Source of the DNA: Octopus sinensis
Taxonomy: Eukaryota
DNA: 43,316 nucleotides
Direction: 5' to 3'
NCBI RefSeq assembly: GCF_006345805.1
Contig: NW_021835096.1
Span: 1 to 43,316 of the forward strand
Shown one piece after another: positions 29,587-30,030 of this stretch. The notes below the pieces were generated by a model. It worked only from the letters and a program-made list of their open reading frames with translations, was not told the DNA's origin and ran no database searches. Made by a program: the position numbers and the translations under genes. Position 1 is the first letter of the stretch. Every line of letters starts with the position of its first letter.

Positions 29587-30030
29587 CGAGAAAGATATGC
29601 CATAATATACATCTGGAAGATCCTAGAAGGACTTGTCCCAAACTTTGGCATCGAGAGTTACACAAATGCCAGAACTGGGCGCCACTGCATAGTGCCAAGG
29701 ACTCCAAATTTGCCATCAAGATGTAGGACAAGATACTGTGATAGCCTGGGCTTCCAAGGCCCACAGCTCTTCAATATCCTCCCAAAAAACCTGAGAGACC
29801 TGCATGGGGTGGATGCAGATGTCTTTAAAATAAAACTGGATCTCTTCCTGTCAGGTGTCCCAGATGAACCAACTTCACGGCAGGAGGTGCAGATGAGGGC
29901 AGCTGCATCGAACTCTCTCATGCACCAAATGGCAATTGCTAAAAAGCATTCGTGAAGTAAAATCATGTAGCAACACCAAATGGTGGTGCCCCAGCATGGC
30001 CACAGCTTGTGAGCTGAAACTAGATAAAAA
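29587..30030 (+). mobile_element. 5'-truncated CR1-group LINE 3' end (open frame 29587-29955 plus 3'UTR)
   Basis: RERYAIIYIWKILEGLVPNFG...SLGFQGPQLFNILPKNLRDL..FKIKLDLFLSGVPDEP..RAAASNSL is a typical non-LTR ORF2 C-terminus. A deleted partial duplicate lies at 29455-29585. Confidence 0.85.

What the first reader, a model, noticed from the sequence alone, without database searches (positions are those of the whole stretch)
29982..30030. LINE 3'UTR and SINE A tail share a motif and a covarying hairpin, indicating a partner pair
LINE: GGTGGTGCCCCAGCATGGCCA-CAGCT(tgtg)AGCTG-AAAC. SINE A: GGCGGTGCTCCAGCATGGCCG-CAGTC(aaat)GACTG-AAAC. A third variant at 4116 is CAGCC(tcag)GGCTG. Three different sequences keep a 5-bp stem and 4-nt loop at the same position, and most other SINE variants use G-U wobble or loop changes. 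An upstream stem GCGG/CCGC versus GTGG/CCAC also covaries. Known: stringent LINEs recognise a 3' stem-loop shared with their SINEs. Inference: this CR1-like lineage mobilises the most abundant SINE here.
Basis: partly seen in the sequence, partly recalled or inferred. Interest (0 to 1): 0.75.

Follow-up and report, generated by a model that had tools for sequence, protein, structure and literature searches.

The report
LINE tail shared by octopus SINEs
In this likely octopus genome, a group of LINE jumping genes and two short parasitic repeats (SINEs) end in the same tail, predicted to fold into two RNA hairpins, so the SINEs likely borrow that LINE group's copying enzyme; the abundant old SINE matches the group as a whole, while a very young tail-swapped SINE matches one young LINE subfamily almost exactly.

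Summary
The shared tail is real. All 30 loci found with ORF2 DNA alone end in it, so it is the LINE's own 3' end. The 5-bp hairpin covaries between families. The better fold is a first hairpin with a G·G mismatch, also seen in distant LINE relatives. The 'third variant' is another LINE family.

Partnership holds for the LINE group, not this subfamily. No LINE with SINE A's stem was found (0 of 60 loci), and SINE A's tail is old and closest to family F3. The closest match is a different, very young SINE (another head plus this tail; 391 exact junctions, median divergence 0%), 48/52 identical to a young sister subfamily. Of 60 LINE-tail copies, 29 break at the foot of hairpin 1, probably where new heads are picked up.

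This is a new member of a known kind (stringent SINE-LINE pairs), untested by experiment. Earlier scan notes on other DNA report small-RNA fusions to a LINE tail.

The parts
29585..30029 (+). 5'-truncated copy of LINE subfamily F1a: ORF2 C-terminus (stop at 29953-29955), short 3' UTR and tail
   Evidence: 97.8% identical over 445 nt to long copy L064; ORF 29575-29955; relatives carry RVT_1 and Exo_endo_phos_2
29454..29585 (+). Duplicated internal piece of the same LINE with a short deletion, at the 5' junction
   Evidence: second BLAST piece, 83% over 154 columns
29981..30002 (+). Predicted hairpin 1: 4-bp base, G·G mismatch (29985/29998), 4-bp upper stem, 4-nt loop (29990-29993)
   Evidence: MFE and centroid fold; RNAalifold consensus; pair counts
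30003..30016 (+).
   Evidence: 98.5% of cells paired, two pairs with changes on both sides
30017..30040 (+). Conserved A-rich linker and family-specific terminal repeat, followed by a TA-rich flank
3780..3960 (+). 3' part of a SINE A copy with the homologous tail (hairpin 1 at 3897-3916, hairpin 2 at 3918-3931)
   Evidence: z = -3.61
4098..4150 (+).
   Evidence: same stem and loop sit behind ORF2 sequence in L143 and close variants in L199
30051..31245 (+). SINE A inserted beside the LINE, with a tandem array of its 3' ~112-bp unit; source of the six G·U variants
4272..4660 (+). SINE B copy with its usual body; the same head is fused to the LINE tail in the young chimeric SINE elsewhere in the genome

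Best explanation
The stretch is the 3' end of a truncated LINE whose tail, predicted to fold into two hairpins, is shared by several related LINE families and by at least two SINEs, and the ORF2 proteins of this LINE group likely recognise that tail and copy the SINEs in trans. SINE A likely captured the tail long ago from an F3-like ancestor, changed its stem and loop compensatorily, and kept being copied by later members of the group (F1, F2). No single partner subfamily can be named for it. Because the loop of hairpin 2 differs between nearly all subfamilies while hairpin 1 and the junction stay almost invariant, specificity likely lies in hairpin 1 and the junction, with hairpin 2 needed as a shape. 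Reverse transcription likely stalls or switches template at the foot of hairpin 1. That would explain the many tail-only copies, the 5S-tail fusion and the birth of the young SINE B/tail chimera, whose partner is likely the young subfamily F1c. Shown: tail ownership, family structure, covariation, break points, ages. Inferred: RNA folding, recognition, trans-mobilisation, template switching.
For: Tail belongs to the LINE: 30 of 30 ORF-selected loci, one being the window copy. ORF2 domains. Further LINE families F2, F3, F4, F5 end in the same tail. Hairpin 2: pair 4 C-G in 10 rows and U-A in 3, pair 5 C-G in 7 and U-A in 6, of 13 related rows; a double change of pair 5 also occurs inside F2 (L235). 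Hairpin 1: MFE in all 7 tails folded, z -1.5 to -4.5; its outer pair is U-A in F1 and F3 and C-G in F2. Same layout just before terminal repeats in two distant in-genome LINEs and in 3 of 6 close metagenome relatives. Ages overlap: SINE A1 3.1% (n=30), A2 6.0% (n=42), F2 4.4% (n=18), F1b/c 4.9% (n=11), F1a 1.4% (n=42, BLAST-biased). Shared TA-type 3' junction: SINE A1 28 of 72, A2 22 of 68, F1a 21 of 54, chimera 21 of 31, against 140 of 3606 background. Break points: 29 of 60 copies end 4-16 nt upstream of the motif and 1 of 60 at 17-40 nt. Full 5S rRNA fused to an F2 tail in L152. Chimera: 391 exact junctions, 30 of 30 with one tail, median 0% divergence; F1c median 0.4% (n=29), tails 48/52 identical in the three rows printed.
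Against: No functional test. No LINE carrying SINE A's pair 4 was found (0 of 30; 0 of 30), but neither search was exhaustive, so an unsampled exact partner remains possible. Family-level covariation among the four near families is weak (47 of 48 cells paired; 647 of 20,000 shuffles as high). The near-plus-far figure (109 of 110) is circular, because the far tails were picked by a descriptor that demands pairing and the G·G. The descriptor missed 3 of 6 close relatives and hit 9 of 47 distant ones, mostly by chance. It also missed the single decayed copies of F2var, F3-F7 and old SINE. The window copy folds only at z -1.5. TA preference is not unique to this group: control SINE B2 shows it in 10 of 13 copies, and the wider TA test is weak for SINE A (40 of 142). 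In zebrafish L2 the loop carries the specificity (PMC4176376, section 13); if that held here, SINE A's distinct loop would argue against F1 or F2 as partners. Divergence samples are small and differently biased.
Confidence: 0.72

Rival explanations
1. Strict one-to-one pair: this subfamily (F1a) is the partner of SINE A.
For: Shared tail; F1a (1.4-3.5%) overlaps SINE A1 (3.1%) in age; shared TA junction.
Against: Tail identity to SINE A is lowest for F1a (32/46) and highest for F3 (36/46); local score 44 against 60. Terminal repeats differ. SINE copies 16% diverged already carry the tail. F1b/c and F2 are equally contemporary.
Confidence: 0.1
2. SINE A is copied by an unsampled sister LINE whose tail has SINE A's own stem and loop (strict loop recognition as in L2), and the families seen here are only its relatives.
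For: Loop-specific recognition is shown for ZfL2-1 and ZfL2-2 (PMC4176376, section 13 read). A LINE at low copy number could hide among 108,025 SINE-type tails. The pattern excluded an A two bases upstream and so could miss LINE-like contexts.
Against: 0 of 30 and 0 of 30 targeted loci had LINE ORF next to a SINE-type stem; none among the C-terminal hits in all fetched DNA. Hairpin-2 loops differ even between subfamilies a few percent apart, and between the chimera and F1c.
Confidence: 0.13
3. SINE A is mobilised by the Tx1-like LINE that inserts into its head, and the tail is only a relic.
For: A Tx1-like element sits inside a SINE A head in L065; earlier scan notes propose this for 'the commonest short repeat' (e1-10346042).
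Against: The SINE A tail has no similarity to that Tx1 3' UTR (score 14, shuffle mean 14.1). 0 of 199 SINE A tails sit at that insertion site. Only one Tx1 copy was scored.
Confidence: 0.03
4. The motif at 29982 is a SINE remnant lying next to an unrelated LINE fragment.
For: A SINE A copy starts only about 20 nt downstream.
Against: 30 of 30 ORF-selected loci have the same tail, followed by different flanks.
Confidence: 0.01

Closest known systems
Bivalve CR1/CR1-Zenon SINE partners: CR1-14_CGi with BivaV-SINE2 and BivaCORE-SINE1 (PMC4824008, section 11 read; PMC4758252 and PMC11481361, passages)
   Same: Mollusc tRNA-type SINEs share a 3' tail with a CR1-group LINE; conserved stem-loops with compensatory changes; one tail serves several SINE families; activity profiles overlap only partly.
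   Different: Cephalopod host. I could not see the figure sequences, so identity with the oyster tail is untested. Here a G·G-mismatch hairpin, a break-point hot spot and a near-zero-age tail-swapped SINE are resolved.
Stringent L2 elements ZfL2-1 and ZfL2-2 (PMC4176376, abstract and section 13 read); eel UnaL2/UnaSINE (recalled; listed in PMC3747384 Table 1 passage)
   Same: 3' stem-loop followed by short terminal repeats; stem sequence exchangeable if pairing is kept.
   Different: There the loop decides specificity. Here the loop of the last hairpin changes between close subfamilies and SINEs, and the upstream hairpin is the invariant part.
Passerine TguSINE1/PittSINE with CR1 tails (PMC5729268, passages read)
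   Same: New SINE proposed to arise by template switching; CR1-derived tail with hairpin and terminal microsatellite.
   Different: There the head was replaced on an existing SINE. Here an existing SINE head took a new LINE tail, and the product is almost undiverged. Avian CR1's 8-bp terminal repeat is absent.
Octopus OK, OR1 and OR2 SINEs (Ohshima and Okada 1994; not held; known to me only from citations in PMC4824008 and PMC4758252)
   Same: Octopus tRNA-derived SINEs, OR1/OR2 cited as CORE-SINEs; SINE A and SINE B may be these families.
   Different: Identity not tested; no partner LINE for them was found in the passages read.

Membership tests
Non-LTR retrotransposon (APE-type LINE) | ORF2 with APE endonuclease and reverse transcriptase | tested here: met
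   Exo_endo_phos_2 E=1.9e-9 and RVT_1 E=6.2e-23 in L062; intact 1033-aa relative P0001 at 89% identity, best PDB match L1 ORF2
Non-LTR retrotransposon (APE-type LINE) | Dispersed copies with common 3' end, variable 5' truncation and terminal repeats | tested here: met
CR1 clade in the strict sense | RT phylogeny groups with named CR1 references rather than L2, Crack or CR1-Zenon | not testable with these tools
   No named references held. CR1-group assignment rests on recalled C-terminal motifs and on ~3.9 kb length (CR1 mean 3791 bp in PMC10294476 passage). No similarity to the window's other CR1-like fragment, so the clade may differ.
CR1 clade in the strict sense | Amniote CR1 8-bp terminal microsatellite (PMC5729268) | tested here: not met
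   Terminal repeats are A-rich units that differ by family; this feature is specific to amniote CR1.
Stringent SINE-LINE partner pair | SINE 3' end homologous to the LINE 3' end | tested here: met
   32-36 of 46 positions for SINE A, 41-43 of 46 for the chimera; scores 40-60 against shuffle maxima 20-27
Stringent SINE-LINE partner pair | Conserved stem-loop with compensatory changes | tested here: met
   few independent events, no phylogeny-aware test such as R-scape
Stringent SINE-LINE partner pair | Overlapping periods of activity | tested here: inconclusive
   Overlap in small, differently biased samples; no genome-wide landscape
Stringent SINE-LINE partner pair | ORF2 binds the tail and mobilises the SINE in trans | not testable with these tools
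   needs binding and retrotransposition assays
tRNA-derived SINE (SINE A, chimera) | [quoted passage not shown] | tested here: inconclusive
   ARAGORN found none in the window and Rfam none in L247 or L216; A/B-box-like heads judged by eye. CORE and Nin/Deu domain labels for SINE A are recalled, apart from the short CORE word given in PMC5786205.

The most novel reading that the evidence does not exclude
A widespread LINE lineage recognises its RNA through a G·G-mismatch hairpin rather than the terminal loop, so any member can copy any RNA ending in the ~45-nt tail. Its reverse transcriptase drops off exactly at the foot of that hairpin, making the lineage a standing SINE factory. It powered a >100,000-copy SINE across successive LINE subfamilies and has just produced a new, probably still active SINE by tail swap.
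Probability: 0.35. Interest if true: 0.62.

Novelty: new member of a known kind. Interest (0 to 1): 0.43.

Why it matters
SINEs make up about 11.6% of the Octopus vulgaris genome and most are unclassified (PMC13282606, part 1 of 3 read; 'partner' and 'tail' do not occur in its main text). Naming the LINE group behind one of the two commonest SINEs explains a large part of that expansion. The F1c/chimera pair is nearly undiverged, with long open frames in F1c copies, so it offers a ready, testable system for tail recognition outside L2. A natural series of tails shows which positions can change and which cannot. The break-point hot spot ties 5' truncation, small-RNA chimeras and SINE birth to one structural landmark. 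The principle itself (stringent tail sharing, template switching) is established.

Tried and rejected
Pfam on the window's own 126-aa fragment: no family. Upstream ORF1-like frames of L062 and L065: no family. Within-family SINE variation as evidence of selection: rejected as neutral decay plus one tandem array. Search for a LINE with the SINE-type stem: none in 60 loci. Tx1 as partner of SINE A: rejected for the one copy scored; the SINE C probe in that call gave 0 of 86 and was probably misplaced, so it says nothing. Primary-sequence similarity of the SINE A tail to distant relatives L197 and L342: none above shuffles; only the fold is shared. Sequencing runs for the chimera: no RNA holder listed. 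Laying contigs on one chimera locus to find an empty allele was uninformative because of repeats. Literature: eight searches showed no description of this octopus pair. Ohshima and Okada 1994 was not held, and I opened no supplements; repeat libraries there (PMC13282606, PMC10294476) or in Repbase/Dfam may already contain these families. Scan look-ups by sequence found nothing.

Full report
Setting. The window is one contig of a 2.72-Gb animal genome with about 30 large contigs. The closest named homologue of the LINE protein is from Argonauta hians (61%), so an octopus is likely; this is inferred.

The observation. The motif is at 29982-30030 and has 24 matches in the window against none in shuffles. 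The 5-bp stem with 4-nt loop is present in the LINE copy, SINE A and the 4116 variant. In an alignment of 13 real tails this helix is paired in 98.5% of cells, with two pairs changing on both sides. The rows are related, so the number of independent events is small: one at pair 4 between SINE and LINEs, and at least two at pair 5 among LINEs, including L235 inside family F2.

The tail is the LINE's own. A query made only of ORF2 DNA (29660-29940) returned 30 loci, one being the window copy. All 30 continue into the same UTR and tail and then into different flanks. Longer copies give an element of about 3.9 kb with endonuclease and RT domains. The clade name is less secure: CR1 group by recalled motifs, not tested against named references, and not alignable to the window's second CR1-like fragment.

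The upstream stem. The pair is broken in 7 of 13 tails. Single-sequence and alignment folding instead give a hairpin with a 3-4-bp base, a G·G mismatch, a 4-bp upper stem and a 4-nt loop. Its outer pair is U-A in F1 and F3 and C-G in F2. The same two-hairpin layout precedes the terminal repeats of two distant LINEs in this genome (L197, L219) and of 3 of 6 close metagenome relatives, plus L412, with different sequences; z-scores for L341, L342 and L197 are -4.2, -3.4 and -4.5. The descriptor used demands these features, hit 9 of 47 more distant loci mostly by chance, and missed single decayed copies of several in-genome families. The pooled figure of 109 of 110 paired cells is therefore descriptive, not a significance test. 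Among the four near families alone the shuffle test gives 647 of 20,000.

Many LINE families share the tail. Whole-genome pattern counts give 108,025 tails with the SINE-type pair 4 and 12,001 with another base there. The latter include subfamilies F1a-c, family F2 (127 exact copies of one pattern, about 72% amino-acid identity), F3 (9 exact copies, about 65%) and rarer ones; a tree separates them. The 4116 variant is F3. The hairpin-2 loop differs among nearly all of them, while hairpin 1 and the junction are nearly invariant.

Which LINE serves SINE A. Two targeted searches found no LINE ORF next to a SINE-type stem (0 of 30; 0 of 30); neither is exhaustive. SINE A's tail is nearest F3 (36/46; F2 33, F1b/c 33, F1a 32) and shares F3's kind of terminal repeat. 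Old SINE copies, 16.5% from their consensus (n=11), already have it. Younger subfamilies stand at 6.0% (n=42) and 3.1% (n=30), beside F2 4.4% (n=18), F1b/c 4.9% (n=11, mixed) and F1a 1.4% (n=42, biased by BLAST ranking; 3.5% in 3 pattern-picked copies). The 3' junction is TA-type in 28 of 72 A1 and 22 of 68 A2 copies, as in F1a (21 of 54), against 3.9% background. A control SINE with another tail also prefers TA (10 of 13), so this is supportive but not specific. A Tx1-like element inserts into a SINE A head (L065), but its UTR is unrelated to the SINE A tail and 0 of 199 SINE A tails occupy that site. In 115 sampled stretches (1.15 Mb, evenly chosen positions) SINE A and SINE C are about equally common.

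A younger SINE is the closer partner. Six of the 30 loci were the head of SINE B joined to the LINE tail. The exact junction occurs 391 times, 30 of 30 examined copies have one tail, and median divergence is 0% (n=31). LINE subfamily F1c is similarly young (median 0.4% in 29 top hits, open frames up to 571 aa within the 3.3-kb loci), and its tail matches at 48 of 52 positions in the three rows printed. One SINE B head joined to a SINE A tail was also seen (L122).

Break-point hot spot. Among 60 pattern-picked LINE tails (21 + 30 + 9; nine loci were dropped first: two SINE-type, six chimeras, one F2 variant), 29 lose homology 4-16 nt upstream of the motif, around the foot of hairpin 1 at 10 nt, and 1 does so at 17-40 nt. 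Homology of SINE A and of the chimera to the LINE begins at the same place, and a complete 5S rRNA is fused to an F2 tail ending about 25 nt before the motif (L152). Earlier scan notes describe such fusions on other DNA (e1-9504912, e1-9505443); I did not check that they concern this LINE.

Mechanism. Established: stringent LINE ORF2 binds a 3' stem-loop and primes at terminal repeats, with loop specificity in zebrafish L2 (PMC4176376, abstract and section 13). SINEs change partners by template switching (PMC4824008, passages and section 11; PMC5729268, passages). Inferred here: group-wide recognition through hairpin 1 and the junction; stalling or switching at its foot; SINE A carried by successive members of the group; the chimera carried by F1c.

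Verdict. This is a real stringent SINE-LINE tail system of a known kind. Eight literature searches showed no description of it for octopus; the 1994 octopus SINE paper and all supplements were unseen. The G·G hairpin, the hot spot and the newborn SINE are what lift it above routine annotation.

Noticed in passing
L216, L240-L269 (e.g. G000:C1:50082677); head as in window 4272-4436: Very young ~230-bp chimeric SINE: SINE B head plus this LINE group's tail; at least 391 copies, median divergence 0%.
   Followed up: yes
L152:1357-1560: Full-length 5S rRNA fused to an F2 LINE tail.
   Followed up: partly
L065 (G000:C18:26175300-26185200): A Tx1-like LINE inserted in the head of a SINE A copy, upstream of a near full-length F1a element.
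   Followed up: partly
window 4865-5324 (- strand): 3' fragment of a second CR1-like LINE with a different UTR and terminal repeat; unrelated to the SINE A tail.
   Followed up: partly
window 30334-31245 and 25373-25650: Tandem arrays of the 3' ~112-bp unit of SINE A, each unit including the tail.
   Followed up: no
window 27880-28500 (- strand): Stacked copies of SINE C; its 3' end resembles by eye those of Tx1-like elements in L085 and L102.
   Followed up: no
window 37900-38120; L066, L093, L131: SINE B head with yet another body and tail (B2), strongly associated with TA flanks (10 of 13); SINE B thus has at least four tails.
   Followed up: partly
L122:4480-4720: SINE B head joined to a SINE A-type tail; one copy seen.
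   Followed up: no
L180, L182, L185, L197, L200, L203, L206: Recurrent SINE A variant with an internal deletion ending exactly at the foot of hairpin 1.
   Followed up: no
window 29454-29585: The 5' end of the LINE copy repeats an internal segment with a short deletion, possibly a re-priming event.
   Followed up: no
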